DNA of 64,000 nucleotides, from positions 18,939-82,938 of the forward strand of contig JBBCJV010000017.1 in the NCBI GenBank assembly GCA_037190565.1, given 5' to 3'. A program made the translations under genes and the position numbers. Under the pieces are notes generated by a model. The model ran no database searches and was not told where the DNA came from. It saw nothing but the letters and a program-made list of their open reading frames with translations. Positions 5,375-39,131 of this stretch are shown one piece after another; the first letter of the stretch is position 1; each line of letters opens with the position of its first letter. This DNA is from Burkholderiaceae bacterium (GTDB lineage: Bacteria > Pseudomonadota > Gammaproteobacteria > Burkholderiales > Burkholderiaceae_C).

Positions 5375-6282
5375 ACGAGAAGTGGAACCTGATCATCGAC
5401 GTGGCGGCCTGCGAGAACTGCCACAACTGCACGCTGTCGGTGAAGGACGAGCACTGCGGCAACGACTTTGCCGGTTACGCCGCGCCGCAGCCCGAGCATG
5501 GCCACGAATGGATCAAGATCCATCGCCGGGTGCGCGGCAGCGCGCCCATCGTCGACGTGGCCTATCTGCCGACCACCTGCAATCACTGCGATGCGGCCCC
5601 CTGCATCGAACGGGCAGGTGATAGCGGCGCGGTGTTCAAGCGGCCCGACGGCATCGTCATCATCGACCCCGAAAAAGCCAAGGGGCGACGCGATCTGGTC
5701 GACGCGTGCCCGTATGGCGCGATCTGGTGGAACGAATCGCTTGCGCTACCGCAGAAGTGGATCTTCGATGCGCATCTGCTCGACATCGGTTGGAAGCAAC
5801 CACGCTGCGCGCAGGCCTGCCCGACCGGCGCCATTTCGTCCCTGAAGACGAGCGACGACGACATGCGCGCACGCGCCGCGACCGAGGGGCTTCGCGTATT
5901 GCGGCCCGAGCTGGAGACGCAACCGCGCGTGTACTACCGGAACCTGCATCGCTACACCGACTGGTTCATCGCCGGCAGCGTGTTCGGCCACCTCGCCGGC
6001 CAGATCGAATGCATCGAGGGCGCGCAGATCGCGCTCAGGCATGCCGACGGAACGCGGCGCACGACGCGGACCGATGCGTTCGGCGAATTCAAGCTCGATT
6101 GCCTCCCGGCGCAGCCGGGCGAGTACCACCTGAGCGTGGATCACCCGGGATTCGCAACGGCTCGCTTCGATTTGGCGGTGAACGACAGCATCAACGTCGG
6201 CGCGATCGATCTCGATCGACAACCGCCGCCGCGCCCGACCACGCCCATCTCGGGGCTCAGCCCTCCGACGGAACAGCCATGA
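5371..6282 (+). CDS. 4Fe-4S ferredoxin-type beta subunit of the molybdoenzyme, with a C-terminal Ig/carboxypeptidase-regulatory-like beta domain
   Basis: Cys clusters CENCHNC, CNHCDAAPC, CPYGAI and CAQACPTGAI. The C-terminal part (GSVFG...IALRHADGTRRTTRTDAFGEFKLDCLPAQPGEYHLSV) looks like the beta-barrel domain of BthL-type subunits. The ATGA-type overlap with the alpha subunit gene suggests translational coupling. Confidence 0.85.
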   Translation: MNEKWNLIIDVAACENCHNCTLSVKDEHCGNDFAGYAAPQPEHGHEWIKIHRRVRGSAPIVDVAYLPTTCNHCDAAPCIERAGDSGAVFKRPDGIVIIDPEKAKGRRDLVDACPYGAIWWNESLALPQKWIFDAHLLDIGWKQPRCAQACPTGAISSLKTSDDDMRARAATEGLRVLRPELETQPRVYYRNLHRYTDWFIAGSVFGHLAGQIECIEGAQIALRHADGTRRTTRTDAFGEFKLDCLPAQPGEYHLSVDHPGFATARFDLAVNDSINVGAIDLDRQPPPRPTTPISGLSPPTEQP

Positions 6283-7307: not shown

Positions 7308-7346
7308 AGTCGAGACGGCCGCCATCGAATCGCCGTCATCGCTGCG

Positions 7347-7756
7347 TCAGGCACCGCCCCATCTCGCTCGACAGATTATTGAACTCCACTGTCCCGAGGA
7401 GCACCTCGGTTTCATGGATCGCGAATGGTCACCGTATGTTTCGACATAGATCAGGTTCATACGGGTGAAACCGGGGTTCTCGTAGGCCGCAGGCACGCTT
7501 CGGCGTAGATGAGGGGGGCGCCGCCGTCGCTGCTGGGTTCGAGCCGCTCGATGCCGATCCGCGCGTCGTTGACCAGGTGAGGCACCGGACTGTATTCGAG
7601 GTACAGCAACCAATGCTGGATGATGGTGCCAGGCACCGAGACTTCGATGGTGCCAGGGCGTATGGATCTCGCCGTATTGAAGCCGAGATCGAACCCGTGT
7701 GCCACAATCCCCGGCAACCCGACTACCCGCCGCTGCGCCGCCAGGCTGGCGGCCAC
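7347..7756 (-). pseudogene. Possible frameshifted remnant of an unidentified gene
   Basis: Two minus-strand frames carry protein-like, non-repetitive sequence. These are ...GIVAHGFDLGFNTARSIRPGTIEVSVPGTIIQHWLLYLEYSPVPHLVNDARIGIERLEPSSDGGAPLIYAEA and ...AAYENPGFTRMNLIYVETYGDHS. They join only with a frameshift near 7470-7490. There is no intact ORF and I do not recognise the family. Confidence 0.25.
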
Positions 7757-7758
7757 CG

Positions 7759-9045
7759 ATGATGTTCTGGGTTTCGATCGTCGTCGCCACCTTGTTGGTC
7801 ACCGCCGCCATCGCCTGGCCGCTGGTGACCCGCCGCGCGCCCGCTCAGATCGATGAAAGCGACGACGTGCGCCGCCGCCTCGCCGTCTTTCGCGACCGCA
7901 AGCGCGAGATCGAACGAGAGCGTGCGGCCGGGCGCCTGAACGATGCCGAGGCTGCGCAGGCACACGCCGATCTGCTGCGGCAGGTTGCCGAAGATCTGCC
8001 CGATGCGGCACGCGCCGCGCCGGTCGGCGGCGCAGCCACAGCGTCGCGAACCGTGCCGCGCTCGATCGCGGCACTGCTGGTGATGCTGGTTCCGCTGCTG
8101 GCCGGCGGCGTCTACCAGCGCGTGGGCGAACCGCGACTGGCCAGCATCGATCTGCGCGGCGAACGGCCCCTGCTGGCGGGCGACGTCGCGGCGCTGATCG
8201 CCGGCTTCGAAAAACGCACCCGCGACAATCCCGAAGACGGCGAGGCGTGGGCGCTGCTGGCCGAGACGCGCAAGATCCAGGGCCGGCACGCCGAGGCAGT
8301 CGACGCGTTCGCCCAGGCGATGCGCCGGCTCGCCCCCGACGCGCGGCTGCTGGCCGACTACGCCGAATCCGCCGCGCTGCTGGCCGGTGGCGATTTCTCG
8401 GGCCGCCCGCTGGCCCTGCTCGAACAGGCGCTCACGGTCGATCCCGGCGAACTCAAGGCGATCGGGCTGATGGGTGCCGCGCAGTATCGGCTCGGCAACC
8501 TGGACCGCGCGCGCGATTACTTGAAACGATTGCAGCGCAGCCTGCCTGTCAACAGCGAAGACGCCACGCAGATCACGCAGGTGCTCCAGCGCATTGATGC
8601 CCAGATCGCGCACGGCGGCGCGCTGCCGCCGGCCGCTGTGAACGATGCTCCGAAGGCCGATCGATCCGCGGGCCCTGCCCCGACAGCCGGCCAGGGCGGC
8701 GGTGACGTGACCGGCACCGTGTCGGTCGATGCTGCGCTGGCCGCCCGTGCCGGCCAGGGCGGCACGCTATTCGTGATCGCGCGCCAGGCCGGCGGCCCGC
8801 CGATTCCGGTGGCCGTGCTGCGCGAACCGGGCGCACAGTTGCCCATGCCGTTCTCGATCGGCCAGGCTCAGGCGATGGATCCGTCGCGGCCCCTGGCCAT
8901 GGCCGGCACGTTCACGCTGGAAGCGCGGCTGAGCCGCAGCGGCAATGCGATGCGTCAGCCGGGCGATCTCTACGGCCAGGTCGACGGCGTCGCAGCGGGC
9001 CAACGCAACGTGCTGATCACGATCGATCGCGTGGTGGCGCCTTGA
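7759..9045 (+). CDS. ccmI: Cytochrome c-type biogenesis protein CcmI (CycH), TPR-containing apocytochrome chaperone
   Basis: Starts at MMFWVSIVVATLL (TM1), with a second TM at about aa 95-115. TPR-like repeats follow (EDGEAWALLAETRKIQGRHAEAVDAFAQA..., AIGLMGAAQYRLGNLDRARDYL). The position next to ccmF/ccmH supports the call. Confidence 0.8.
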   Translation: MMFWVSIVVATLLVTAAIAWPLVTRRAPAQIDESDDVRRRLAVFRDRKREIERERAAGRLNDAEAAQAHADLLRQVAEDLPDAARAAPVGGAATASRTVPRSIAALLVMLVPLLAGGVYQRVGEPRLASIDLRGERPLLAGDVAALIAGFEKRTRDNPEDGEAWALLAETRKIQGRHAEAVDAFAQAMRRLAPDARLLADYAESAALLAGGDFSGRPLALLEQALTVDPGELKAIGLMGAAQYRLGNLDRARDYLKRLQRSLPVNSEDATQITQVLQRIDAQIAHGGALPPAAVNDAPKADRSAGPAPTAGQGGGDVTGTVSVDAALAARAGQGGTLFVIARQAGGPPIPVAVLREPGAQLPMPFSIGQAQAMDPSRPLAMAGTFTLEARLSRSGNAMRQPGDLYGQVDGVAAGQRNVLITIDRVVAP

Positions 9046-9118
9046 ACACCGCACGCCGCACCTGTAAGGGCAGGACCGCGCCGGGCGCACCGTTTAACGA
9101 CGCACGAACGAGGCGAAC

Positions 9119-10567
9119 ATGATTGCCGAGCTCGGACAATTCGCACTGGCCCTGGCGCTGGCGGCATCACTGGCCTTGGGTGTGCTGCCGATGCTCGGCA
9201 GCGCGATCGGCGGGCCCACCGGTGCGCGGCTGATGGCCACGGATCGCCCGGCCGCGCTGGCGCTGATGACGCTGGCGATCCTCGCTTTCCTGGCGCTGGG
9301 CACGCTGTTCGTCGACAACGATTTCAGCGTTTCTTTGGTCGCCACCCATTCCAACCTGGATCTGCCGCTGCATTACCGCATCGCCGCCACCTGGGGTTCG
9401 CACGAAGGCTCGATGCTGCTGTGGGTGCTGATTCTGTCCTGTTGGACCGGCGCAGTGGCGATGTTTTCCACGTCGCTGCCCACGCTGCTGCGCGCGCGCA
9501 TCCTGTCCACGATGGGCTTGATCGCCGTCGGCTGCCTGCTGGTCCTGCTGGTCACGTCGAATCCCTTCGAACGACTGGTGCCGCCGCCGCCCGACGGCCG
9601 CGACCTGAACCCACTGCTGCAGGACGCCGGCATGGTGTTCCACCCGCAGCTGCTGTACATGGGCTACGTCGGCCTGTCGGTGGCCTTCGCATTCTCGATC
9701 GCCGGGCTGATCGGCGGACGCTTCGACGCCGCCTGGGCACGCTGGGCGCGTCCCTGGACCACGGTGGCATGGTGCTTCCTCACGCTGGGCATCGCGTTGG
9801 GCTCGTTCTGGGCCTACTACGAACTGGGCTGGGGCGGCTGGTGGTTCTGGGATCCGGTGGAGAACGCTTCGTTCATGCCCTGGCTGATCGCCACCGCGCT
9901 GATCCACTCGCTGTCGGTGGCCGAAAAGCGCGGCACCTTCCGCAGTTGGACGGTGCTGCTCGCGATCCTCGGCTTCAGCCTCAGCCTGCTGGGCACCTTC
10001 CTCGTGCGATCGGGCGTGCTCACCTCGGTGCACGCCTTCGCCACCGATCCGGCGCGCGGCGTGTTCATCCTGATCTTCCTCGCGATCGTGGTCGGCGGCT
10101 CGCTGCTGCTGTTCGCGTGGCGCGCCCCCACCATCGGCAACGGGCCGGGCTTCGCGTCGGTGTCGCGCGAGTCGCTGCTGCTGGCCAACAACGTGCTGCT
10201 GGTGGTGGCGATGGCCGCAGTGCTGCTGGGCACGCTGTATCCGCTGGTGCTCGATACGCTCGAACTGGGCAAGATCTCGGTCGGCCCGCCCTACTTCGAT
10301 GCGGTGTTCTTTCCGTTGATGGCGCCAGCACTGTTCCTGATGGGCATAGCACCGCTGGCGCGATGGAAGAAGGCCGAGCTGCCCGCATTGGTCACGCGCC
10401 TGCGCTGGGCGCTGGCGGTGGCCGTGCTTGCGGCGCTGCTGCTGCCGTTCACCGTCGATGGCTTCAGGCCGATGACCAGCCTGGGCCTGATGTTCGTGCT
10501 GTGGATCATTGCGTGCGTGGCGCTGGCGGTACACGACATGCTGCGCGGGGCCGCCGGCAGGCTGTAG
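9119..10567 (+). CDS. ccmF: Heme lyase CcmF, N-terminal 482 codons, ending at an in-frame TAG
   Basis: Multi-pass membrane protein with the WWD signature WGGWWFWDPVENASFMPWL. The ORF stops at TAG 10565-10567, and the remainder of CcmF continues in the same frame. Confidence 0.85.
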   Translation: MIAELGQFALALALAASLALGVLPMLGSAIGGPTGARLMATDRPAALALMTLAILAFLALGTLFVDNDFSVSLVATHSNLDLPLHYRIAATWGSHEGSMLLWVLILSCWTGAVAMFSTSLPTLLRARILSTMGLIAVGCLLVLLVTSNPFERLVPPPPDGRDLNPLLQDAGMVFHPQLLYMGYVGLSVAFAFSIAGLIGGRFDAAWARWARPWTTVAWCFLTLGIALGSFWAYYELGWGGWWFWDPVENASFMPWLIATALIHSLSVAEKRGTFRSWTVLLAILGFSLSLLGTFLVRSGVLTSVHAFATDPARGVFILIFLAIVVGGSLLLFAWRAPTIGNGPGFASVSRESLLLANNVLLVVAMAAVLLGTLYPLVLDTLELGKISVGPPYFDAVFFPLMAPALFLMGIAPLARWKKAELPALVTRLRWALAVAVLAALLLPFTVDGFRPMTSLGLMFVLWIIACVALAVHDMLRGAAGRL

Positions 10568-10606
10568 CTGCGCCGCGCGCGGCTGCATCCCTCCAGCGTC
10601 TGGGGC

Positions 10607-11110
10607 ATGCATCTAGCGCACCTCGGCGTGGCCGCGTTCGTGGCCGGCGTGACGATGGTCAACAGCTACGAGAATGGCCGCGAGCTGCGCATGGAGCTGG
10701 GCCAGCACGTCACGCTGGGCGGCTACGATCTCCGTTTCGTCGGCCTGGAACCCGTACGCGGCCCGAACTACGATGCCACGCGCGGGCGCTTCGAGATCCG
10801 CCGCGCCGGCGCCGACGGTGCACCGCTGCGCGTGCTGGCGCCCGAGAAGCGCGTCTATCGCGCCTCTGCGATGGCGATGACCGAGGCGGCGATCGACCGC
10901 AGCCTGCTGCGCGACGTTTACGTCTCGATGGGCGAACGGCTCGACGCGCGTACCTGGGTGGTGCGCGCGCACGTCAAGCCCTTCGTCAACTGGATCTGGC
11001 TCGGCTGCGTGCTGATGGCGATCGGAGGAATGCTTGCCGCCGCCGACCGGCGCTATTGGCGCCGCCGAGTTGAACGCGAAGCGAGCGCGGCCGCGGTACA
11101 AACGGCGTGA
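10607..11110 (+). CDS. ccmF: CcmF C-terminal portion (167 codons from the first ATG), same frame as 9119..10567
   Basis: Sequence MHLAHLGVAAFVAGV...RFEIRR...AAIDRSLLRDVYVSMGE...VKPFVNWIWLGCVLMAIGG corresponds to the last TM helices and periplasmic domain of CcmF. Both starts give remainder 2 when divided by 3 (9119 and 10607), so the pieces are in the same frame. Together they total about 650 aa, the normal CcmF size. Confidence 0.8.
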   Translation: MHLAHLGVAAFVAGVTMVNSYENGRELRMELGQHVTLGGYDLRFVGLEPVRGPNYDATRGRFEIRRAGADGAPLRVLAPEKRVYRASAMAMTEAAIDRSLLRDVYVSMGERLDARTWVVRAHVKPFVNWIWLGCVLMAIGGMLAAADRRYWRRRVEREASAAAVQTA

Positions 11111-11143
11111 GCAGGCAGGCCGCCTGCCTGCCGCGGAGGAGAC

Positions 11144-11686
11144 ATGAACGAGAGCGCAATGAACCGGCGCAGCATCGTCACGCTACTGACGGCACTGCTG
11201 ATGGCGCTGCTGTCGTTACCGCTGGTGGCTGCAAACGCGGCGCGCGCCGCCGTCAATGCGCCCACCATCAGGGCGCCCGGCAGCGAGGCCGTTGACATCG
11301 ACGGCCTCGCCACGCCCGAACAGCGGGCGCGCTATCAGCACCTGGCCGAAGAGCTGCGCTGCCTGGTGTGCCAGAACCAGACGCTGGCCGATTCGAACGC
11401 CGGCCTGGCCGTCGATCTGCGGCGCGAGGTCGAGACGATGATCGTCGCCGGACATAGCAACGACGAGATCAAAGGGTTCCTGGTCGAACGTTACGGCAAC
11501 TTCGTGCTTTATCGCCCGCCGATGCAAGGCAACACCTGGCTGCTGTGGGCCGGCCCATTCGGGCTGCTGGCCGCCGGTGCGTTCGCGTGGTGGCGCGTCC
11601 AGCGCCGCACCCTGCCCGCTGCCGACGCGCAGCCGATCGCCAACGCGCCCGATCTCGAGCGCGCGCGCCGGCTGCTCGACGGCTGA
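11144..11686 (+). CDS. ccmH: Cytochrome c-type biogenesis protein CcmH (NrfF-like)
   Basis: Signal/TM segment, the LRCLVCQNQTLADSNAGLAVDLRREV motif (the LRCxxCQ redox motif of CcmH), and a C-terminal TM helix. Confidence 0.85.
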   Translation: MNESAMNRRSIVTLLTALLMALLSLPLVAANAARAAVNAPTIRAPGSEAVDIDGLATPEQRARYQHLAEELRCLVCQNQTLADSNAGLAVDLRREVETMIVAGHSNDEIKGFLVERYGNFVLYRPPMQGNTWLLWAGPFGLLAAGAFAWWRVQRRTLPAADAQPIANAPDLERARRLLDG

Positions 11687-11700
11687 ACGCGATCGCCGCA

Positions 11701-11730
11701 CCGTCAGCGCCGACACCGCGGCGCTGACGG
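11701..11730 (+). terminator. Perfect 12-bp stem / 6-nt loop hairpin between ccmH and the MocR gene (no U-tract)
   Basis: ccgtcagcgccg (11701-11712), acaccg, cggcgctgacgg (11719-11730), read directly. It could be a terminator or attenuator, or an RNA-stability element. Confidence 0.3.
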
Positions 11731-11757
11731 CATCGGCTCCAAGAGGAGGACCAAGCC

Positions 11758-13254
11758 ATCATCCAGCTACCGATCCAGATCGACGCACGCGCCGGCATCA
11801 GTCTGCAAGATCAGATCTTCGAGCAGATCCATGCGCTGATCCTCGACGGCCGACTTGCCGCGGGCGCGCGGCTGCCGGCATCGCGTTCGCTGGCGCAGGA
11901 CCTGGGCGTCTCGCGCAACACCGTGCTGGGCGTCTATCTGCGCCTGGCCGAACAAGGCATCGTGAACTCGCGCGAGCAGGTCGGCACTTACGTCGCGCGT
12001 CAGGGCTACATCGACGGCCCGCTGCACACGCGAGCGTCGGCCGACGAGCATGATTCGCCGCCTGCGCACGAGCCCGACACGCGCCTGCAACGCCGCCTGC
12101 AATTCCATAACCACTCGCATCGGGTGATCAGCCCGCATACGGAAGGGCTGACGCATGACTTCTGGATCGGCCAGGTCGACCCGCGACTGTATCCGACCAA
12201 TGCATGGCGCAGCCTGCTGGTACGCATGCTGCAAGCCTCCTGTGATCAACTGTGCCATTACGGCGATCCGCAGGGTCTGGTGCAGTTGCGTGAAGCGATC
12301 GCCGCCTACGTCGGCGCGGCGCGCGGCATCGCCACCGATGCATCGCGGGTGCTGATCACCAATGGCATCCAGGAAGGCTTGAGCCTGCTCGCCCACCTGC
12401 TGGTGCGCCCCGGCGTCGAGGTTGCGGTGGAAGACCCCTGTTATCGGGGTGCAAGCAGCGTGTTCGCCAGCCACGGCGCGCTGCTGCGCCCGGTGCCGGT
12501 GGATGCGGACGGGCTCGATCCCGAAGCGCTGCCACGCTCGGCGACGCTGGCCTACGTCACGCCCTCGCATCAGTACCCGATGGGCGCGCGGCTCACGCTT
12601 GCGCGGCGCAAGGCGCTGCTGGCCTGGAGCCGCGAGGTTGGCGCCTACGTCGTCGAGGACGACTACGACAGCGACTTCTGCTATGACGATGCGCCGCTGC
12701 CTGCGCTCAAGAGCGAGGATCGCTTCGATCACGTGGTGTACCTCGGCACTTTTTCCAAGAGCCTGGGCGCCGGACTGCGCCTGGGCTACATGGTGCTGCC
12801 GCAACAGCTCGTAGGGCCCGCGCGCGCAGCCAAGGCGCTGCTGAACAACTGTCAACCGTGGCTCGAGCAGGCCGCGCTGGCCGCTTTCCTCGCCGAGGGC
12901 GACCATGCGCATCACCTGCGCCGGCTGCGCCGCACCTGTGCCCTACGGCGTGATCATCTGAAAGCGGCGATCCTGAACCAGTTGCCCGGCACGCGCATCG
13001 ACGGCGCCCACAGCGGCATGCATCTGGCCGCATATCTGCCCGCGCATCTGCCGGACGTGCGCCGCATCGAGCACGCGGCGCGCAGCGTCGGCATCGGCGT
13101 GTACGGTGTCGAGAGCGCGAACGCGCAGCTCTTCGACGCACGGCGCGCAAGCCAGCTCGATCACTGTCTGCTGTTCGGCTACGCGCGGCTGAGCGAAACC
13201 GAGATCAGCGAAGCGCTGCTCGGGTTGCGGCGCGCGATCGACTCGCTAGGCTGA
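11758..13254 (+). CDS. MocR-subfamily GntR regulator (wHTH fused to a PLP-dependent aminotransferase-fold domain); start codon apparently non-canonical (ATC)
   Basis: The HTH (LQDQIFEQIHALILDGRLAAGARLPASRSLAQDLGVSRNTVLGVYLRLAEQG) is encoded in frame upstream of the first canonical start (GTG 11923). The aminotransferase-like domain contains the LGTFSKSLGAGLRLGY Lys motif. The SD aagaggagga (11741-11750) lies 7 nt before ATC 11758. Confidence 0.8.
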   Translation: MIQLPIQIDARAGISLQDQIFEQIHALILDGRLAAGARLPASRSLAQDLGVSRNTVLGVYLRLAEQGIVNSREQVGTYVARQGYIDGPLHTRASADEHDSPPAHEPDTRLQRRLQFHNHSHRVISPHTEGLTHDFWIGQVDPRLYPTNAWRSLLVRMLQASCDQLCHYGDPQGLVQLREAIAAYVGAARGIATDASRVLITNGIQEGLSLLAHLLVRPGVEVAVEDPCYRGASSVFASHGALLRPVPVDADGLDPEALPRSATLAYVTPSHQYPMGARLTLARRKALLAWSREVGAYVVEDDYDSDFCYDDAPLPALKSEDRFDHVVYLGTFSKSLGAGLRLGYMVLPQQLVGPARAAKALLNNCQPWLEQAALAAFLAEGDHAHHLRRLRRTCALRRDHLKAAILNQLPGTRIDGAHSGMHLAAYLPAHLPDVRRIEHAARSVGIGVYGVESANAQLFDARRASQLDHCLLFGYARLSETEISEALLGLRRAIDSLG

Positions 13255-13275
13255 GAGCCGCCGGCGGCCAGTCGG

Positions 13276-13340
13276 TGGCTCCATCGTTCAAGCCTTGTCT
13301 GGCTCCATCGAATCGACCACACGGCTCAGTGGCACCATCG
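13276..13340 (+). promoter_or_regulatory. Three direct repeats of TGGC(T/A)CCATCG upstream of haoA; candidate MocR operator
   Basis: tggctccatcg at 13276-13286 and 13300-13310, and tggcaccatcg at 13330-13340, read directly. They lie in the 209-bp mocR-haoA intergenic region. Confidence 0.4.
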
Positions 13341-13345
13341 CTGCT
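13330..13345 (+). promoter_or_regulatory. Sigma-54-like -24/-12 element TGGCACcatcgCTGCT upstream of haoA (overlaps repeat 3)
   Basis: GG-N10-GC spacing is correct. The element lies about 120 nt upstream of the haoA ATG. No enhancer-binding protein gene is adjacent, so this is tentative. Confidence 0.3.
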
Positions 13346-13463
13346 GCGCGTTCTGGCACTTCTTGCATCCCTACCCCTCGCCCGATACTGACCGCAGGCT
13401 CGGGATCGTGCACGCACGACCCATATCCCGAGAAGAACGAGACATCTGGAGGAGGGAAGGGAC

Positions 13464-15254
13464 ATGAGAGCCGCATACCTGCCGTTCGCGATGCTGCTGT
13501 CGCTGTTCGCGTGGATCACGCCGGTACAGGCGGCGATCCCGGATTCAGTGCCGGACGAGACGCTTCAGGCACTGAAGCTCGATCGCAAGGCGACCCCGGC
13601 CCAGCTCCACGATGCGTTGAGCAAGCGCGTTCACTCCGAACAAGACGGCTACGGCAAGGGCAGCCACGCGAAGTTCTGGGAACCGATCCCGATGAGCAAA
13701 TACCTGGCGCCATCGCTGTTCTACAAGGCGCCGGAAAGTCTCGACATGGTGGTCAAGCGCGAGGACTGCGTCGTCTGTCATGAGCAGATCACCAAGGGCC
13801 ACGTCACCGCGTGGCGCAAGTCGCTGCATGCCGACCTGAAGGCGCTGCTGGCGCTGCCCGAAAGCGATTCGCGCGCATACAAGAAAACACATCTGACCGA
13901 AGTCGAGGACAACCTGCGTTCGCACGGCATCCTCGGCGCCGGCGAGCGGCTCGAACAAGTCTCCTGTATCGACTGTCACATGGGGGTCGGCAAGAAGACC
14001 GGGCATCACGTGAAAGACCTGCGCATGCCGGACACCACGGTCTGCGGCACCTGTCATCTGCGGCAGTTTGCCGAGCGCGAGTCCGAGCGCGACACGCTGA
14101 CCTGGCCGCAGGATCAGTGGCCGGCCGGGCGCCCGTCGCACGCGCTCGACTACAAGGCCAACATCGAGACCGCCACCTGGGCGGCGATGCAGCAGCGCGA
14201 AGTGGCCGAAGGCTGCACGATGTGCCATACCAACCAGAACAAGTGCGACAACTGCCACGGCCGGCATGAGTTCTCCGCCGTCGAGGCGCGCAAGCCGCAG
14301 GCGTGCTCGACCTGCCACAACGGCGTCGACCACAACGAATTCGAGGCGTACATGCTGTCGCGCCACGGCGTGAACTACCAGACCACCAGCCATAGCTGGG
14401 ACTGGAACGCACCGCTGGCCAAAGCGATCGAGAAGGGCCAGACCGCACCGACCTGCGCGTTCTGCCACATGGAGTACAAGGGCGAGTTCACGCACAACGT
14501 GGTGCGCAAGGTGCGCTGGGGCTTCCTGCCGTTCAAGAACATCGCCGACAATCTTGGGCACAAATGGTTCACCGAACGCCGCGACGCCTGGCAGGGCACG
14601 TGCCAGAACTGCCATTCGGCCAGTTTCGCGGACGCCTACCTCAAGATGATGGACAAGGGCATCATCTCGGGCATGGAGCTGGTCGAAGAAGTGCGCCCGG
14701 TGGTGCAGGCGCTGTTCAACGAGAAGCTGATGGTCGGGCAGAAATCCAATCGCCCACCGCCGTTCGCGCCCGAGAAAGACGAGGCGGGCGGGTTCTTCGC
14801 GCTGTTCATGGCCAACGGCAACAACCCGACCATCGTCGATCGCACCTTCGCCGAGATGTGGGAGCAGCACATCGCCAAGCACTACAAGGGGCTGGCGCAC
14901 GTGCACCCGGGTGGCTTCACCTACAGCGAAGGATGGTCGCAGCTCATCAAGAGCAAGACCGTCATCCTTGAAGAAAATACGCGGCTGCGCGAGAAGGCCG
15001 ACATGGACAAGCGCATCGCGGCGCTGGAAAAGCGCGGCGGCAAGACCTCGTCGCTCGGCGGCGGCGGGCACTCGCAGCTGGCGGCAATGATCGATGAAGT
15101 GACCGGCACGATCGGCGGCGGCGGCGCCGTCGCGATGGGCAGCCTGCTTGCGATCTCGGGCATGCTGATGCTTCGGCGCCCGCGTCGGCGCGATGCCGAC
15201 GGAGCGGATCCGGACACTGCCGCCGATGGAGCCGCCAAGGACGGCACGCCATGA
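13464..15254 (+). CDS. haoA: Octaheme cytochrome c, hydroxylamine dehydrogenase/oxidoreductase (HAO) family, oxidative type with the cross-link tyrosine; C-terminal membrane anchor
   Basis: Signal peptide (…ITPVQA/AIPD). Eight CXXCH motifs: CVVCH 13767, CIDCH 13965, CGTCH 14043, CTMCH 14214, CDNCH 14244, CSTCH 14304, CAFCH 14454, CQNCH 14601. HAO-typical blocks FAERESERDTLTWP, WPAGRPSHALDY and REVAEGCTMCHTNQNKCDNCH. Tyr487 sits in HPGGFTYSEGW (14922-14924). There is a terminal TM helix, GGGAVAMGSLLAISGMLMLRRPRRR. Confidence 0.9.
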   Translation: MRAAYLPFAMLLSLFAWITPVQAAIPDSVPDETLQALKLDRKATPAQLHDALSKRVHSEQDGYGKGSHAKFWEPIPMSKYLAPSLFYKAPESLDMVVKREDCVVCHEQITKGHVTAWRKSLHADLKALLALPESDSRAYKKTHLTEVEDNLRSHGILGAGERLEQVSCIDCHMGVGKKTGHHVKDLRMPDTTVCGTCHLRQFAERESERDTLTWPQDQWPAGRPSHALDYKANIETATWAAMQQREVAEGCTMCHTNQNKCDNCHGRHEFSAVEARKPQACSTCHNGVDHNEFEAYMLSRHGVNYQTTSHSWDWNAPLAKAIEKGQTAPTCAFCHMEYKGEFTHNVVRKVRWGFLPFKNIADNLGHKWFTERRDAWQGTCQNCHSASFADAYLKMMDKGIISGMELVEEVRPVVQALFNEKLMVGQKSNRPPPFAPEKDEAGGFFALFMANGNNPTIVDRTFAEMWEQHIAKHYKGLAHVHPGGFTYSEGWSQLIKSKTVILEENTRLREKADMDKRIAALEKRGGKTSSLGGGGHSQLAAMIDEVTGTIGGGGAVAMGSLLAISGMLMLRRPRRRDADGADPDTAADGAAKDGTP

Positions 15255-16264
15255 ACGCCGGCGCGCGGCGCGCGCTGGGCGGGGCCCTGCTGGCCGCCGG
15301 CCTCGTCCTCGCCGCGCTGGGCGGATATGCGGCGCTGAATCCGGTCGAGCCGCCCTATCGCTACGAGGTCGCGGGCCCCGCCGCGCCGCCCGACGATCCC
15401 GACGTAGCCGATGCGCTGACGCGCGCGAATCTGTCGCTGCGCGAGGCGCGGCTGGTCGATCACGCGACCGGCCGCACGCTTGCCGAGCTTCGCTTTGCCG
15501 AGGCCGATGACGGGCCGGTCATGCTCGACTGGCGGCCCAAGGTCGACGAACCCTTCCTGCTGGCCGCCGCACCGCTGCGCGAGGTGGCGCAGTTGGCCGC
15601 TGCGCTGCGCCGCCACGTTCCCGCCGATGCGTTGGTGCTGGCATGGTGGGATACCTCGCGGCAACTCGCGCTGCTGGCCGGCACGCAGACGCGATTCGAC
15701 CGCCATGTGATCGGCGCGCCGCTTGCATTGCCCGCGCAGTGGGTGCCTGCACGCTCGGCCATCGAGCACGTCGAGAGCGCCTTCTGGCTGCGTGGCAATA
15801 GTGGCAATGCCGCCGAGGCAAGTCCGCCATTTGGCGCCTGGGTCGACGCGATGCTGGCCTCGCCCGCCGATGGGGCGGCCCGGCTGCGCGCGCTCGCGGG
15901 CAAGCGCGAGGCCTATGCGGTGGTGCACGTGCGTGACGCACTGTTGCTGGGTGCGATGGCGCCGCAGCGGCTCGGGGTCGCGTTGCGCGAGCAGCCGGAC
16001 GGCGGCAACCTGCACGGCGCGATCAGCGGCGCACGCGACTGGATGCGCGCGCAACGATATGCCGCCTACTCGGCCTACGCGCCCGAACCCGGACGCGTGC
16101 GGGTGCTTGCGCTGACTGACGAGGCTTCGGCCGGCACGCTGATCGCCGGCCTGTTGCCGTTCCATGATCCCATTCGCAAGCCCGAGCCGGTGCCGGGCAT
16201 GACGCTGGTGCACCAGGTCGGCGGCTTCTGGGTTTATCGGATCGAAGACGGAGGCAGCCTCTGA
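15251..16264 (+). CDS. haoB: HaoB-like membrane-anchored protein (the orf2 partner of haoA)
   Basis: ATGA overlap with the haoA stop. 337 aa with a single N-terminal TM (ALGGALLAAGLVLAALGGYAAL) and the rest predicted to be periplasmic. Position and topology match the haoB gene that follows haoA in known hao clusters. The family was not verified by search. Confidence 0.55.
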   Translation: MNAGARRALGGALLAAGLVLAALGGYAALNPVEPPYRYEVAGPAAPPDDPDVADALTRANLSLREARLVDHATGRTLAELRFAEADDGPVMLDWRPKVDEPFLLAAAPLREVAQLAAALRRHVPADALVLAWWDTSRQLALLAGTQTRFDRHVIGAPLALPAQWVPARSAIEHVESAFWLRGNSGNAAEASPPFGAWVDAMLASPADGAARLRALAGKREAYAVVHVRDALLLGAMAPQRLGVALREQPDGGNLHGAISGARDWMRAQRYAAYSAYAPEPGRVRVLALTDEASAGTLIAGLLPFHDPIRKPEPVPGMTLVHQVGGFWVYRIEDGGSL

Positions 16265-16271
16265 AAATGGA

Positions 16272-16298
16272 GGATATACTTTTACAATCTGTATATCC
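16272..16298. promoter_or_regulatory. 8-bp perfect inverted repeat GGATATAC-N11-GTATATCC in a low-GC patch just upstream of vapB; candidate antitoxin operator/promoter
   Basis: ggatatac (16272-16279) and gtatatcc (16291-16298), read directly. The ttacaa and tatatc hexamers overlap it. Confidence 0.4.
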
Positions 16299-16308
16299 AA
16301 GAAATACC

Positions 16309-16539
16309 ATGCAAGTCGCGAAATGGGGAAACAGCCTCGCTGTACGCCTTCCCGCTGCCGTCGTAGAAGCTCTCGAACTCAAGGAAGGCGACGAGATCGA
16401 GATCCAGGTCCACGATGACAGAACGTTCGGCGTCGCTCGCAAGCCCGGCAAAAAGGAGTGGCTCGGCCGGCTTCGCGCTTTTCGTGGCCGTCTGCCCGCC
16501 GACTTCAAGTTCGATCGGGATGAAGCCAATGCCCGGTAG
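16309..16539 (+). CDS. vapB: AbrB/MazE/SpoVT-family antitoxin (VapB-type)
   Basis: MQVAKWGNSLAVRLPAAVVEALELKEGDEIEI is the classical swapped-hairpin AbrB-like motif. The gene is 76 aa and overlaps the downstream PIN gene. Confidence 0.8.
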   Translation: MQVAKWGNSLAVRLPAAVVEALELKEGDEIEIQVHDDRTFGVARKPGKKEWLGRLRAFRGRLPADFKFDRDEANAR

Positions 16540-16936
16540 CTTCTTCGACACCAATGTCTTGATCTACGCAGCGTCCGCCGATCCGGTCAAAGCCGACCTG
16601 GCGGAACGGCTCATCGCCGAGGGTGGCACGATCAGTGTCCAGGTGCTGAACGAGCTCGCCAATGTCGCGCGCCGCAAAATGGCAATGTCATCGGATGACA
16701 TGCGCGCGTGGTTGACCACGCTCCGCGCCTTGCTGTCGGTTCAGCCCTTGACGGTCGACATCCACGAAGATGGCCTCAGACTGGCGCAGCGCTACGGCTT
16801 TTCGTTCCATGACGCCACCATCGTGGCGGCGGCGCTGCACGCCGATTGCGACGTGCTCTGGTCGCAAGACATGCATAACGGGATGATCGTGGAAGACCAG
16901 CTTCGCATCACCGATCCGTTTTCCGCTGCGCGTTAG
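16529..16936 (+). CDS. vapC: PIN-domain ribonuclease toxin (VapC-type)
   Basis: MPGSFFDTNVLIY (first acidic residue), ...VLNELANV..., ...FHDATIVAAAL..., ...LWSQD: the PIN acidic quartet pattern. The start is 16529 or 16520, overlapping the vapB stop. Confidence 0.85.
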   Translation: MPGSFFDTNVLIYAASADPVKADLAERLIAEGGTISVQVLNELANVARRKMAMSSDDMRAWLTTLRALLSVQPLTVDIHEDGLRLAQRYGFSFHDATIVAAALHADCDVLWSQDMHNGMIVEDQLRITDPFSAAR

Positions 16937-16998
16937 GAGGATTTGCCCCGACAATATGCGGCGCCCGAGCCCACTACCGCTCTTGAGCCCGCAAACCG

Positions 16999-17940
16999 AT
17001 GGATCTGAAACTCGTCGAACACCTGCTGCTGGTCGCCGAATCCGGCAGCTTCTCCAAAGCCGCATCGATCCTCGGCATGGCCCAGCCCGCCCTGGGCCGG
17101 CAGATCGGCAAACTGGAACGGCTCTGCGGCACTCGTCTGCTGTATCGGCATGGCCGCGGCGTGACGCTGACGCCCGAAGGCGAGCAGTTCATCCAGCGAA
17201 TGCGGCCGATGCTGCGTCAGATCGAATTGCTGATCGGCGAGATCGCCCAGCAGCGCCTGCAGCCGCACGGACCGGTCACCGTCGGACTGACGCCGACGAT
17301 GCTGAGCCTGTTCGGCCTGTTGCTGGTCACCTCGGCGCGCAAGAAATATCCGCACGTCAAGCTGAACATCGTCTCCGGCTACAGCGGCTACATCCAGGAA
17401 TGGCTGATCGGCGGCGACCTCGACATCGCGCTACTGCACGATGCCCGCCGCTCCAAGCACATCGTCGTCGACTATCTGGCCAGCGCAGGCCTGCATCTGG
17501 TGTCACCGCCCGATCAGGTCAAGCGCAATCGCAAGAACCGGACCTCGATCGATCTCGAAGAGCTGGCCAGCCTGCCGCTGGTGCTGCCCACGCGCAGGCA
17601 CGGCCTGCGCCGCACGCTGGAGGCCGCCTGCAAGGAAATCGGCGTGAGCCTGAACGTCGAATACGAGATGGACACACTGTCGCTGATGAAGGAACAGGTG
17701 GTGGCCGGCCATGCCCATACCGTGCTGGCGATTCCCGCCATCGTCGGCGAGCTCAAGCGCGGCGCGGTGGTGGCGCGCAAAGTGCGCAATCCCGCGGTCG
17801 ATACGCGGCTGATGCTGGCGACAGCGGTGAACCGTCCATATACGCAGGCGATCCGCGCCGTCCAGGCCGAGATCGGCGAGGTGATGAGGCAGGCCGTGCA
17901 CGCCTCGACCCTGCCCCTGGATATCCGCTTCACGCCTTAG
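16999..17940 (+). CDS. LysR-family transcriptional regulator
   Basis: N-terminal HTH MDLKLVEHLLLVAESGSFSKAASILGMAQPALGRQIGKLE plus a LysR substrate-binding domain. Confidence 0.9.
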   Translation: MDLKLVEHLLLVAESGSFSKAASILGMAQPALGRQIGKLERLCGTRLLYRHGRGVTLTPEGEQFIQRMRPMLRQIELLIGEIAQQRLQPHGPVTVGLTPTMLSLFGLLLVTSARKKYPHVKLNIVSGYSGYIQEWLIGGDLDIALLHDARRSKHIVVDYLASAGLHLVSPPDQVKRNRKNRTSIDLEELASLPLVLPTRRHGLRRTLEAACKEIGVSLNVEYEMDTLSLMKEQVVAGHAHTVLAIPAIVGELKRGAVVARKVRNPAVDTRLMLATAVNRPYTQAIRAVQAEIGEVMRQAVHASTLPLDIRFTP

Positions 17941-18088
17941 CCAGTCCTTATCGGCATAGCTGAAATATGCCGGCATGCAATGCCGGATCGGCTGGTGCTT
18001 CGCATAATGGGCCTCTGCGCACATCAGGGCGGTGCCGATGCGATGACGCCGGCAGCAGCCGCCGATAACGAGACTCGAGGAGGCAGTC

Positions 18089-19096: not shown

Positions 19097-19106
19097 TCGC
19101 AGCAGC

Positions 19107-21256: not shown

Positions 21257-21276
21257 CCTTTCGCCGAGACGCCCCC

Positions 21277-22950: not shown

Positions 22951-22954
22951 TGCC

Positions 22955-38042: not shown

Positions 38043-38065
38043 CTCGTGTGGAAGGTCGTGACGCT

Positions 38066-39131
<1,066 letters not shown>

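What the first reader, a model, noticed from the sequence alone, without database searches (positions are those of the whole stretch)
7759..16264. Oxidative-type hao locus in a heterotroph-style context, fused into one block with a private ccmI-ccmF-ccmH set and a MocR regulator
Six same-strand genes form a tight block: ccmI, ccmF, ccmH, a MocR-type PLP regulator, haoA and haoB.

HaoA has all hallmarks of hydroxylamine dehydrogenase: eight CXXCH motifs, HAO-specific blocks and the cross-link Tyr. In canonical ammonia oxidisers, haoA-haoB is followed by cycA (cytochrome c554) and cycB (cM552) and works with amoCAB. Here haoB is followed directly by a vapBC module. The other ~55 kb encodes ordinary organotroph functions (Bug SBPs, LysR/GntR/IclR catabolic operons, PTS-Ntr-like genes, gsh genes). 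No amo/pmo-like, c554 or cM552-like gene is visible.

Physical linkage of hao to a System-I heme-lyase subset and to a MocR regulator is not part of the textbook hao cluster. It suggests a self-contained, possibly horizontally acquired hydroxylamine oxidation/detoxification (heterotrophic nitrification?) module. Its electron acceptor, inducer and maturation route would all be unknown.
Basis: partly seen in the sequence, partly recalled or inferred. Interest (0 to 1): 0.8.

Follow-up and report, generated by a model that had tools for sequence, protein, structure and literature searches.

The report
Hydroxylamine oxidase module in a heterotroph
A non-nitrifying Burkholderiales bacterium carries a genuine hydroxylamine-oxidising octaheme enzyme (HaoAB) next to a PLP-type regulator and heme-attachment genes, an arrangement that turns out to be common in heterotrophs but is barely described.

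Summary
ccmI, ccmF, ccmH, mocR, haoA and haoB lie on one strand at 7759-16264, followed by vapBC.

HaoA is an oxidative-type HAO. It has eight CXXCH motifs, is 57% identical to Nitrosomonas europaea HAO, and keeps the cross-link Tyr and the Asp-His pair. No other c-type cytochrome and no amo-like gene lies in the 64 kb.

Two defects were missed: ccmF has an in-frame TAG (10565-10567; TCG in a 98.7%-identical sister MAG), and mocR starts at ATC.

The linkage is not unique to this strain. mocR flanks haoAB in 48 of 56 non-Methylocystis loci, and ccm genes are nearby in 24 of 81. On the Ruegeria pomeroyi megaplasmid the order is haoAB-mocR-ccmFGHI-hemA-ccmE.

Here ccmI-F-H is collinear with the lineage's ccmI-ABCDE-F-G-H operon, minus ABCDE and G. 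It carries the same repeated box (TGGCWCCATCG) as the haoA promoter, which argues for co-regulation.

HaoAB without amo in these MAGs was already noted (Huddy 2021). New here are the conserved hao-mocR-ccm module, the shared boxes, and an oligosaccharyltransferase-like fold for HaoB.

Electron acceptor, inducer and hydroxylamine source remain unknown. Interest is moderate.

The parts
7621..7655 (-). Two copies of the box TGGCACCATC(G/A), 24 bp apart, 105-140 bp upstream of ccmI. Candidate operator shared with haoA.
   Evidence: Conserved in L001. Absent upstream of housekeeping ccmI in L084-L086.
7759..9045 (+). ccmI: apocytochrome chaperone of System I, with membrane N-domain, TPR and Ig-like domains.
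   Evidence: TIGR03142 E 4e-21; PF23914; PF23892. 79% nt identity to the first gene of the Zeimonas ccmI-ABCDEFGH operon.
9119..11110 (+). ccmF: heme lyase subunit, interrupted by an in-frame TAG at 10565-10567. The 482-aa product would lack the C-terminal third, including the conserved LAHLG histidine.
   Evidence: PF01578 and PF16327 split over two ORFs; sequence; L001 has TCG; 88.5% nt and 92% aa identity to Zeimonas housekeeping ccmF.
11144..11686 (+). ccmH: thiol-redox heme lyase subunit with the LRCxxC motif. It follows ccmF directly, with no ccmG between them.
   Evidence: PF03918 E 3e-45. L005 and L006 also have ccmF-ccmH without ccmG.
11758..13254 (+). mocR: GabR/MocR-type regulator with a winged-HTH plus an aminotransferase-fold PLP domain. 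Starts at ATC behind an AGGAGG ribosome-binding site.
   Evidence: GabR 4n0b E 5e-56 over residues 16-494, with the PLP lysine (GabR K312) aligned in FSKS. NF052282 345 bits. ATC is shared with L001 and L003; the others have ATG.
13276..13340 (+). Three direct copies of TGGC(T/A)CCATCG (starts 13276, 13300, 13330; spacing 24 and 30 bp), 134-188 bp upstream of haoA. Candidate MocR operator.
   Evidence: The related motif is found upstream of haoA in 28 of 50 mocR-linked loci and 0 of 28 without mocR, 37-fold above background.
13464..15254 (+). haoA: octaheme hydroxylamine oxidoreductase, with signal peptide, 8 CXXCH, Asp-His pair, cross-link Tyr, and a C-terminal Gly-rich/hydrophobic/RRPRRR tail.
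15251..16264 (+). haoB: single-pass membrane protein. Its periplasmic domain has an STT3/PglB/AglB C-terminal-domain-like fold and a conserved WWD motif.
   Evidence: TIGR04392 251 bits; AF2 pLDDT 84; Foldseek; STT3A WWDYG alignment.
16267..16936 (+). vapBC-type toxin-antitoxin pair: MazE/AbrB antitoxin 16267-16539 and PIN toxin about 16520-16936. A neighbour, not obviously part of the module.
   Evidence: PF04014 and PF01850. Present in L001 but not beside hao in other loci.
7339..7618 (-). Three fragments of a lipoprotein gene that is intact (334 aa) and divergent from ccmI in L001. A deletion scar marking the left edge of homology with L001.

Best explanation
This is a hydroxylamine-oxidation module of the non-nitrifier type.

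Shown:
- HaoA is a periplasmic octaheme P460-type hydroxylamine oxidoreductase with every oxidative hallmark.
- It is translationally coupled to HaoB.
- mocR is its near-universal neighbour.
- System I cytochrome c maturation genes are linked to it again and again.
- Here the ccmI-F-H operon and haoAB carry the same repeated box in their upstream regions.

Inferred:
- The MocR-type regulator binds these boxes and switches on both the enzyme and extra heme-lyase capacity (CcmF/H lyase plus the CcmI apocytochrome chaperone), needed to load 8 hemes per monomer.
- The lyase set would work with CcmABCDE and CcmG encoded elsewhere.
- The effector is probably hydroxylamine or a related amine or oxime that reacts with the regulator's PLP, by analogy with GabR and its PLP-GABA aldimine.
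- HaoA oxidises hydroxylamine to NO, because the distal Tyr358 of the N. europaea enzyme is Leu here, as it is Met in the NO-forming anammox enzyme.
- HaoA passes electrons to a general periplasmic cytochrome c encoded elsewhere.
- The role is detoxification or scavenging of hydroxylamine produced by neighbours or by the cell's own organic-N metabolism, not lithotrophic ammonia oxidation.

In this particular strain the lyase gene ccmF is broken by a nonsense codon. Maturation would then depend on another CcmF, or the module is impaired.
For: HaoA identity:
- 8 CXXCH; E 1e-180 to N. europaea HAO.
- D267, H268 and Y467 are invariant in 82 sequences.
- HaoB is an equivalog hit, and its start overlaps the haoA stop by 4 bp.

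mocR linkage:
- mocR is beside haoAB in 51 of 81 loci, and in 48 of 56 non-Methylocystis loci, across beta-, alpha- and gammaproteobacteria and in three different orientations.
- The PLP lysine is conserved.

Boxes:
- Three lie upstream of haoA and two upstream of ccmI.
- There are three close pairs, against 0 in 200 simulations.
- The motif is enriched 37-fold upstream of haoA, and only in mocR-linked loci.
- It is absent upstream of housekeeping ccmI.

ccm linkage:
- 24 of 81 loci have ccm genes nearby.
- Allopusillimonas has mocR-haoAB-ccmCDEFGHI plus ccmBA.
- The R. pomeroyi megaplasmid and Mesorhizobium have haoAB-mocR-ccmFGHI-hemA-ccmE.
- L005 and L006 repeat ccmF-ccmH-mocR-haoAB.

Selection: purifying selection acts on haoA, haoB and mocR (dN/dS 0.09-0.13) and on ccmF against Zeimonas (0.14).

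Precedent: a MocR-family regulator, DnfR, already controls another hydroxylamine pathway (PMC12575085).
Against: - No experiment. Box-MocR binding and the effector are inference only.
- ccmF has an in-frame TAG and mocR a non-canonical ATC start in this window.
- The window-lineage CcmF does not form a hao-specific clade. It sits next to a housekeeping CcmF, so it could be the cell's only CcmF rather than a dedicated paralog.
- ccmABCDE and ccmG were not found in the 64 kb, and the rest of the genome could not be searched.
- The boxes upstream of ccmI also face a divergent lipoprotein gene in L001.
- No electron acceptor or NO-handling gene is visible.
- No source of hydroxylamine is known.
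Confidence: 0.6

Rival explanations
1. The adjacency is incidental in this lineage. ccmI-F-H is what remains of, or a rearranged part of, the organism's ordinary System I operon, and a mocR-haoAB(-vapBC) cassette simply landed downstream of ccmH. The ccm genes serve all cytochromes and are not tied to HAO.
For: - CcmF is 92% aa and 88.5% nt identical to housekeeping ccmF of a Zeimonas MAG.
- The gene order is collinear with ccmI-ABCDE-F-G-H of Zeimonas, Lautropia and FT117.
- In the NJ tree it nests among housekeeping CcmFs rather than with L005 and L006.
- dS to Zeimonas (0.34) equals the dS between two housekeeping genes.
Against: - The hao-type boxes lie upstream of this ccmI but not upstream of housekeeping ccmI.
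- The G-less ccmF-ccmH junction next to mocR-hao is shared with L005 and L006, at only 73-78% identity.
- hao-ccm linkage evolved or persisted in many unrelated arrangements. These include likely second copies with hemA and ccmE on the R. pomeroyi megaplasmid.
Confidence: 0.2
2. The module is decaying and inactive in this strain. A nonsense codon in ccmF, a lost ATG in mocR and deletion scars at the left edge mark a locus on its way out.
For: - TAG at 10565-10567, against TCG in L001.
- ATC start.
- Fragmented lipoprotein gene at 7339-7618.
- Synteny with L001 is lost left of 7621.
Against: - haoA, haoB and mocR are intact, with dN/dS 0.09-0.13 against L001.
- The ATC start is shared with L001 and L003, which keep the ribosome-binding site and a conserved HTH-coding region, so it is probably functional.
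- A single TAG in a metagenome assembly may be a minority allele or an error.
Confidence: 0.2
3. HaoA works in the reductive direction, as an NO, nitrite or hydroxylamine reductase, as part of denitrification or N-oxide detoxification. Several database records call it 'hydroxylamine reductase'.
For: - Source names.
- A published suggestion that a heterotroph's HAO might run in reverse (PMC8402940).
Against: - The Tyr cross-link and the Asp-His pair that define oxidative HAOs are invariant.
- Full-length 57% identity to the N. europaea enzyme.
- Reductive octaheme relatives lack the Tyr (established knowledge of the family).
Confidence: 0.08
4. The organism is an ordinary ammonia oxidiser or methanotroph whose amo/pmo and cycAB genes lie outside the window.
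For: Only 64 kb of the genome could be read.
Against: - The authors of the sister MAGs found no ammonia-oxidation genes in the Burkholderiales and Comamonas genomes that carry HaoAB (PMC8061750).
- The context is rich in TctC/LysR/amidase organotroph genes.
- None of 81 related loci has a multiheme cytochrome gene next to haoAB.
- HaoA branches away from N. europaea.
Confidence: 0.03

Closest known systems
haoAB of non-nitrifiers and methanotrophs (mHAO of Methylacidiphilum and Methylocystis; hao-orf2 of Ruegeria/Silicibacter pomeroyi)
   Same: - haoA-haoB pair without cycA and cycB.
- Oxidative hallmarks kept: 8 hemes, cross-link Tyr, Asp-His.
- The N. europaea distal Tyr358 is replaced by a hydrophobic residue.
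- Presumed hydroxylamine detoxification to NO.

   Different: - No pMMO or AMO is in view to make hydroxylamine.
- Most Methylocystis loci (22 of 25) lack the adjacent mocR.
- Here the heme-lyase genes sit upstream in their own box-bearing operon.
Canonical hao cluster of ammonia-oxidising bacteria (haoA-haoB-cycA-cycB, working with amoCAB)
   Same: HaoA is 57% identical over its full length, and HaoB is an equivalog.
   Different: - No c554 or cM552.
- No amo in the window.
- Tyr358 replaced by Leu.
- A MocR regulator and ccm genes are attached.
NrfEFG, the dedicated CcmF/CcmH/CcmI-like heme lyase that matures the multiheme nitrite reductase NrfA in E. coli
   Same: - The same three-protein subset (CcmF-like, CcmH-like, TPR CcmI-like) sits next to a multiheme N-cycle enzyme.
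- It must rely on CcmABCDE encoded elsewhere.
- NrfA is a structural relative of HAO hemes 4-8 (PMC9500659).
   Different: - Scores are below the NrfE, NrfF and NrfG cut-offs.
- The proteins are close to housekeeping CcmF/H/I of the same family.
- HaoA has no CXXCK or other odd heme motif that would demand a special lyase.
GabR/MocR-family PLP-dependent transcription factors, including DnfR of the Alcaligenes dirammox cluster
   Same: - wHTH plus aminotransferase-fold domain with the PLP lysine.
- Multiple direct-repeat boxes.
- DnfR shows that a MocR regulator can govern a hydroxylamine pathway.
   Different: - Different target genes: heme HAO rather than the di-iron DnfA.
- Effector unknown.
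- NCBIfam would name it PdxR (345 bits against a cutoff of 320). That is probably over-annotation, given the hao context.
C-terminal globular domain of oligosaccharyltransferases STT3/PglB/AglB (compared with HaoB)
   Same: - Top Foldseek hits for two independent HaoB models (E 4e-5 to 6e-4).
- WWD aligns to the WWDYG sequon-binding motif.
   Different: - HaoB has one TM helix and no 13-TM catalytic domain.
- The motif is WWD(T/S/L/F)S, not WWDYG.
- WWD is lost in the Mesorhizobium, Ruegeria and Geminicoccaceae HaoBs.
- TM-scores normalised to HaoB are only 0.30-0.37.

Membership tests
Oxidative hydroxylamine oxidoreductase (HAO, heme P460 octaheme family) | Eight CXXCH heme-binding motifs | tested here: met
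   Regex count of 8 in 13464-15254; sequence.
Oxidative hydroxylamine oxidoreductase (HAO, heme P460 octaheme family) | Full-length homology to a solved HAO | tested here: met
   6m0p, 4fas and 1fgj: E about 1e-180, residues 24-560 aligned.
Oxidative hydroxylamine oxidoreductase (HAO, heme P460 octaheme family) | Cross-linking tyrosine (N. europaea Tyr467) and the distal Asp267-His268 pair | tested here: met
   All three are invariant in 82 aligned sequences, including the window.
Oxidative hydroxylamine oxidoreductase (HAO, heme P460 octaheme family) | Distal Tyr334 (Tyr358 in precursor numbering) of the N. europaea enzyme | tested here: not met
   Leu in the window. It is never Tyr in the 81 non-AOB sequences. 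The NO-forming anammox enzyme has Met there (PMC9500659). This is a feature of the AOB subgroup, not of the family.
Oxidative hydroxylamine oxidoreductase (HAO, heme P460 octaheme family) | P460 chromophore and hydroxylamine-oxidising activity | not testable with these tools
   Needs purified protein.
Canonical AOB hao cluster / hydroxylamine-ubiquinone redox module | haoB immediately downstream of haoA | tested here: met
   TIGR04392 251 bits against a cutoff of 200; 4-bp overlap.
Canonical AOB hao cluster / hydroxylamine-ubiquinone redox module | cycA (tetraheme c554) and cycB (tetraheme cM552) following haoB | tested here: not met
   No other multi-CXXCH ORF in 64 kb. None within -6/+7 kb of haoA in 81 related loci.
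Canonical AOB hao cluster / hydroxylamine-ubiquinone redox module | amoCAB in the genome | tested here: inconclusive
   Not in the window. Reported absent from sister MAGs (PMC8061750). The whole genome was not available.
System I cytochrome c maturation heme lyase (CcmF/CcmH/CcmI) | CcmF with WWD domain and conserved histidines, as one intact protein | tested here: not met
   The domains are present, but the ORF is split by TAG at 10565-10567. The conserved LAHLG His lies downstream of the stop. It is intact in L001.
System I cytochrome c maturation heme lyase (CcmF/CcmH/CcmI) | CcmH with LRCxxC; CcmI with TPR and Ig-like domains | tested here: met
   PF03918 with LRCLVC in the sequence; PF23914 and PF23892.
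System I cytochrome c maturation heme lyase (CcmF/CcmH/CcmI) | Partner genes ccmABCDE and ccmG available in the genome | not testable with these tools
   Absent from the window. Relatives carry them in ccmI-ABCDE-F-G-H operons.
NrfEFG dedicated heme lyase | Scores above the NrfE, NrfF and NrfG equivalog cut-offs | tested here: not met
   TIGR03145 544 against 927; TIGR03147 107 against 159; NF007692 29 against 306. It may work like NrfEFG, but these are not NrfEFG orthologs.
MocR/GabR PLP-dependent transcription factors | N-terminal GntR-type wHTH fused to a type-I aminotransferase fold with the PLP lysine | tested here: met
   GabR alignment over residues 16-494, with K312 aligned in FSKS. 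The ortholog in L081 carries PF00392 and PF00155.
MocR/GabR PLP-dependent transcription factors | Binding to repeated boxes near the target promoter, with an effector reacting with PLP | not testable with these tools
   Candidate boxes were found. Binding and effector need experiments.
STT3/PglB/AglB oligosaccharyltransferase (for HaoB) | C-terminal globular domain fold with the WWDYG motif | tested here: inconclusive
   Foldseek probability 1.0 and E 4e-5 for two models, but TMq is only 0.30-0.37. Only WWD is kept.
STT3/PglB/AglB oligosaccharyltransferase (for HaoB) | Multi-spanning catalytic membrane domain | tested here: not met
   One N-terminal helix only. HaoB is not an oligosaccharyltransferase.

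The most novel reading that the evidence does not exclude
Heterotrophic proteobacteria widely carry a hydroxylamine-sensing regulon. In this reading:
- A MocR-type factor detects hydroxylamine chemically, through oxime formation with its own PLP cofactor.
- It then co-induces an NO-forming HAO together with the heme-attachment machinery needed to build it. In alphaproteobacteria this also includes heme synthesis (hemA).
- HaoB, unexplained for 20 years, is a membrane-anchored relic of the peptide-binding domain of oligosaccharyltransferases. It holds or positions a segment of HaoA during maturation or tethers it to the membrane.

This would make hydroxylamine a commonly traded or defended-against intermediate outside the nitrifiers.
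Probability: 0.2. Interest if true: 0.8.

Novelty: new variant of a known kind. Interest (0 to 1): 0.5.

Why it matters
Hydroxylamine is a reactive, leaky intermediate of nitrification, and heterotrophic nitrification remains poorly explained.

A conserved HAO module found in Comamonas, Ottowia, Castellaniella, Allopusillimonas, Rubrivivax, Ideonella, Mesorhizobium, Ruegeria and many MAGs suggests that many organotrophs in soils and wastewater can oxidise hydroxylamine, probably to NO. The module comes with its own regulator and often its own heme-lyase genes. This bears on NO and N2O budgets, and on using hao as a marker gene for nitrifiers.

The work gives three directly testable handles:
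- a candidate operator sequence;
- a candidate sensor whose PLP chemistry fits hydroxylamine;
- a structural lead for HaoB.

The hao-ccm coupling also offers a natural system for asking why some multiheme enzymes travel with their own maturation genes.

Tried and rejected
1. Looking up the window's own contig through HaoA and the truncated CcmF returned nothing. The rest of the genome could therefore not be checked for amo, cycAB, ccmABCDE or System II.

2. A sigma-54 promoter was suspected at TGGCAC-N-TTGCA (about 13355). It was rejected on reading the sequence, because the GG-to-GC spacing is two bases short.

3. The sigma-70 and terminator scan found nothing useful in the spacers. Rfam and tRNA scans of the window were empty.

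4. I tested whether hao-linked CcmFs form their own clade, which would have proved a dedicated paralog. They do not for this lineage.

5. I tested whether the divergent lipoprotein gene of L001 belongs to the module. It occurs only in L001, and as fragments here.

6. The plasmid search for mobility found only the R. pomeroyi megaplasmid, typed non-mobilizable. There is no integrase, and no GC anomaly over the locus (0.68 against 0.67 in the flanks). Recent transfer is therefore not supported.

7. Literature searches for hao with ccmF, MocR, the heterotroph genera or HaoB-oligosaccharyltransferase found nothing relevant beyond Huddy 2021 and the DnfR papers.

8. Bergmann 2005, Versantvoort 2020 and Xu 2022 are not held. 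From memory only: Bergmann et al. 2005 reported hao, with or without orf2 and without c554, in six non-nitrifiers.

Full report
**What is in the sequence**

Between 7759 and 16264 the + strand carries six genes with spacers of 73, 33, 71, 209 and -4 bp.

- Profile searches identify CcmI (TIGR03142, PF23914, PF23892), CcmF (TIGR00353, PF01578, PF16327), CcmH (PF03918, with LRCLVC) and a MocR/GabR-type regulator. HaoA matches PF13447 at 469 bits. HaoB matches TIGR04392 at 251 bits against a cutoff of 200.
- HaoA has eight CXXCH motifs. It aligns over residues 24-560 to the solved N. europaea enzyme at E about 1e-180.
- The cross-link Tyr467 falls in GGFTYSEGW.
- In an 82-sequence alignment, Asp267, His268 and Tyr467 are invariant.
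- vapB starts 2 bp after haoB, and a PIN-domain gene follows.
- HaoA is the only ORF in the 64 kb with more than one CXXCH. The single-motif ORF at 5371-6282 is a 4Fe-4S ferredoxin.
- Twenty flanking ORFs are ordinary organotroph genes: TctC receptors, LysR, amidase, FMN dehydrogenase, a pyrogallol-hydroxytransferase-like molybdoenzyme, AmtB and a glycosyltransferase. None resembles AMO.

- ccmF is one reading frame interrupted by TAG at 10565-10567. The 482-aa product would lack the last third, including the conserved LAHLG histidine. A sister MAG contig is 98.7% identical over 7621-25251 and reads TCG (Ser) at that codon. This contig is L001, Burkholderiales bacterium SCN18, JAFKGG010000379.
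- mocR has no ATG, GTG or TTG at the position where homologs begin MQ(I/L)PI. It has ATC behind an AGGAGG site. L001 and the 87%-identical L003 share this, and both keep the helix-turn-helix coding region. The ATC is therefore probably a weak but used start. The TAG is strain-specific damage, a minority allele or an assembly error.

Left of 7621, homology with L001 ends. Only three fragments of L001's 334-aa lipoprotein gene remain, at 7339-7618. ccmI is ten times more diverged from L001 (dS 0.19) than the other genes (dS 0.013-0.021), which points to a recombined allele.

**Is the linkage special to this strain?**

It is not. A pattern scan of one genome per species found 235 relatives of HaoA, and 80 loci were fetched. 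They come from:

- Burkholderiaceae MAGs;
- Comamonas (including C. badia DSM 17552), Ottowia, Castellaniella and Allopusillimonas;
- Rubrivivax, Ideonella and Limnobacter;
- Mesorhizobium, Xanthobacteraceae, Geminicoccaceae, Steroidobacteraceae and Salinisphaerales;
- many Methylocystis.

With the window's proteins as tblastn queries:

- haoB follows haoA in 75 of 81 loci.
- mocR is nearby in 51 of 81, and in 48 of 56 non-Methylocystis loci. The eight exceptions are mostly truncated contigs.
- ccm genes are nearby in 24 of 81.
- mocR occurs upstream on the same strand (27 loci), downstream convergent (16) or downstream on the same strand (8). The association has therefore survived rearrangement.

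Named arrangements include:

- mocR-haoA-haoB-ccmC-D-E-F-G-H-I plus ccmB-A in Allopusillimonas;
- haoAB-ccmCDEFGHI in Comamonas badia and Ottowia;
- haoAB-ccmI-mocR in Comamonas sp. NLF-1-9;
- haoA-haoB-mocR-ccmF-ccmG-ccmH-ccmI-hemA-ccmE, then a truncated hemoglobin, on the Ruegeria pomeroyi DSS-3 megaplasmid;
- the same order through ccmE in Mesorhizobium Root552 and Root157 and in related MAGs.

L005 and L006 have HaoA 75-78% identical to the window's. They repeat the window's ccmF-ccmH-mocR-haoA-haoB order, including the absence of ccmG. No locus has a multiheme cytochrome gene beside haoAB.

**What the ccmI-F-H set is**

- The closest CcmF relatives (92-70% identity) are abundant in Burkholderiaceae MAGs.
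- Three were inspected: a Zeimonas MAG, Lautropia sp. SCN 69-89 and strain FT117. All lie in an operon ordered ccmI-A-B-C-D-E-F-G-H.
- The window's set is collinear with that operon at 79% (ccmI), 88.5% (ccmF) and 83% (ccmH) nucleotide identity. It has clean absences of ABCDE and of G.
- In an NJ tree the window lineage's CcmF is sister to the Zeimonas housekeeping protein. L005 and L006 sit on another branch of the same family clade.
- dN/dS against Zeimonas is 0.14.

The set is therefore a lineage-native derivative of the ordinary System I operon kept under purifying selection. It is not an import from afar.

Whether it is a second, dedicated copy or the only copy cannot be decided without the genome. 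It resembles NrfEFG in composition, but it fails the NrfE, NrfF and NrfG cut-offs.

**Evidence for shared regulation**

- The 209-bp mocR-haoA spacer holds three direct copies of TGGC(T/A)CCATCG, at 13276, 13300 and 13330.
- The ccmI upstream region holds two more, at 7621-7631 and 7645-7655, 24 bp apart in the opposite orientation.
- For the 10-mer TGGNNCCATC there are seven sites in 64 kb, forming three close pairs. All three pairs lie in these two regions. In 200 Markov simulations no close pair appeared.
- Both ccmI boxes are conserved in L001. They are absent upstream of the housekeeping ccmI genes, although the promoter-proximal 90 bp is otherwise recognisably homologous.
- A near-palindromic form (ATGGnnCCAT-like) lies 90-190 bp upstream of haoA in 28 of 50 mocR-linked loci and in 0 of 28 loci without mocR. 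That is 2.17 sites per kb against 0.059 per kb over all 1.45 Mb of fetched loci.
- Alphaproteobacterial loci show related half-sites, TGGCTCTAC and TGGACCTAC.
- The regulator aligns to GabR over its whole length, with the PLP lysine conserved.

That MocR binds these boxes is inference. Multiple repeated sites are typical of the family, and a MocR-family factor (DnfR) with multiple sites already controls the unrelated dirammox hydroxylamine pathway (PMC12575085).

**Likely mechanism**

Shown:
- an oxidative-type HAO with HaoB;
- a conserved MocR neighbour;
- recurrent ccm linkage;
- shared boxes.

Inferred:
- MocR activates haoAB and ccmIFH together.
- The effector may be hydroxylamine itself, which forms oximes with PLP. 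This would parallel the PLP-GABA aldimine that activates GabR (general knowledge of the family).
- The lyase and CcmI chaperone raise the capacity to load the eight hemes of each HaoA monomer. In alphaproteobacteria hemA and ccmE are added.
- The product is likely NO. The N. europaea distal Tyr358 is Leu here and never Tyr in the 81 non-AOB sequences. The NO-forming anammox enzyme has Met at that site (PMC9500659). In R. pomeroyi a truncated hemoglobin ends the cluster.

The electron acceptor is not encoded nearby in any relative, and the source of hydroxylamine is unknown.

**HaoB**

- An AlphaFold2 model reached pLDDT 84 and pTM 0.80. A second model, of a 42%-identical homolog, reached pLDDT 82.
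- Both have the C-terminal globular domains of oligosaccharyltransferases as their top PDB matches (STT3, C. jejuni PglB 3aag, A. fulgidus AglB-S2 3vu0). Scores were E 4e-5 to 6e-4, probability 1.0 and target-normalised TM 0.50-0.64.
- A profile search of all PDB sequences returned only STT3A. At E 1.8 this is not significant alone. It aligns HaoB VLAWWDTSRQL to VMSWWDYGYQI, the sequon-binding WWDYG motif.
- WWD is invariant in the 14 close homologs and present in 66 of 78 HaoBs. It is replaced in the Mesorhizobium, Ruegeria and Geminicoccaceae group.
- HaoB has a single membrane helix and no catalytic domain. At most it is a peptide-binding relic.
- I found no paper connecting HaoB with these enzymes.

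This is a lead, not a conclusion.

**Comparison with what is known, and novelty**

- The study that produced the sister MAGs reported HaoAB with eight CXXCH in Comamonas and Burkholderiales MAGs lacking ammonia-oxidation genes (PMC8061750).
- hao-haoB in a heterotroph from an anammox reactor is also on record, there with c554 (PMC8402940).
- From memory, Bergmann et al. 2005 listed hao with orf2 and without c554 in six non-nitrifiers, including S. pomeroyi. That paper could not be read.

The core surprise ('hao in a heterotroph') is therefore known. I could not find the following described:

- the near-universal mocR partner;
- the graded hao-ccm(-hemA) linkage;
- the shared boxes;
- the derivation of ccmI-F-H from a ccmI-ABCDE-F-G-H operon;
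- the HaoB fold.

I rate the locus a new variant of a known kind, of moderate interest.

Noticed in passing
window 15251-16264: The predicted HaoB fold resembles the C-terminal peptide-binding domain of oligosaccharyltransferases (STT3/PglB/AglB). Its conserved WWD aligns to their WWDYG motif. WWD is lost in the Mesorhizobium, Ruegeria and Geminicoccaceae HaoBs.
   Followed up: yes
window 10565-10567: In-frame TAG inside ccmF. The 98.7%-identical sister contig L001 has TCG. The public gene call for this contig is the truncated 482-aa product (P0198, on a 152,845-bp contig).
   Followed up: yes
window 11758-11760: mocR begins with ATC where homologs have ATG. L001 and L003 share this, with the AGGAGG site and the HTH-coding region conserved.
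   Followed up: partly
window 7759-9045: ccmI differs from L001 ten times more than its neighbours do (dS 0.19 against 0.013-0.021; 89% aa identity). This suggests allelic replacement or gene conversion, possibly from another ccmI copy.
   Followed up: partly
window 7339-7618 (- strand): Three fragments of a 334-aa lipoprotein gene that is intact in L001. Synteny with L001 ends at 7621, exactly at the first ccmI-upstream box.
   Followed up: yes
window 14460-14480 (HaoA residue aligned to N. europaea Tyr334/Tyr358): The distal tyrosine of the N. europaea active site is Leu here. It is Leu, Val, Glu, Ala, Asn or Met in all 81 non-AOB relatives.
   Followed up: partly
window 15090-15254 (HaoA C-terminus): HaoA ends with GGGG, then a hydrophobic helix, then RRPRRR. 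This resembles a GlyGly-CTERM-type sorting or anchor signal. About 20 acidic residues follow, overlapping the haoB start.
   Followed up: no
L087 (R. pomeroyi megaplasmid NC_006569, 203768-223345); L060, L066, L071, L077, L079: Alphaproteobacterial hao modules add hemA (5-aminolevulinate synthase) and ccmE after ccmFGHI. R. pomeroyi also adds a group III truncated hemoglobin.
   Followed up: partly
window 11701-11730: Perfect 12-bp inverted repeat (CCGTCAGCGCCG / CGGCGCTGACGG, 6-nt loop) in the ccmH-mocR spacer. It is only partly conserved in L001. It may be a terminator or attenuator between the ccm genes and mocR.
   Followed up: no
window ~38500-39000: G+C rises from about 0.67 (1-38 kb) to about 0.72 (39-64 kb), with a dip to 0.63 at the boundary. 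The sister MAG bin averages 0.67. This may be an island boundary or an assembly join.
   Followed up: no
window 2360-6282: A 1004-aa molybdopterin oxidoreductase has a pyrogallol-hydroxytransferase-like first domain. It is paired with a 4Fe-4S subunit and flanked by TctC receptors. Likely an aromatic or polyphenol catabolic enzyme.
   Followed up: no
window 36594-38404 (- strand): A glnK-amtB pair (P-II protein and ammonium transporter) lies about 20 kb from the hao locus.
   Followed up: no
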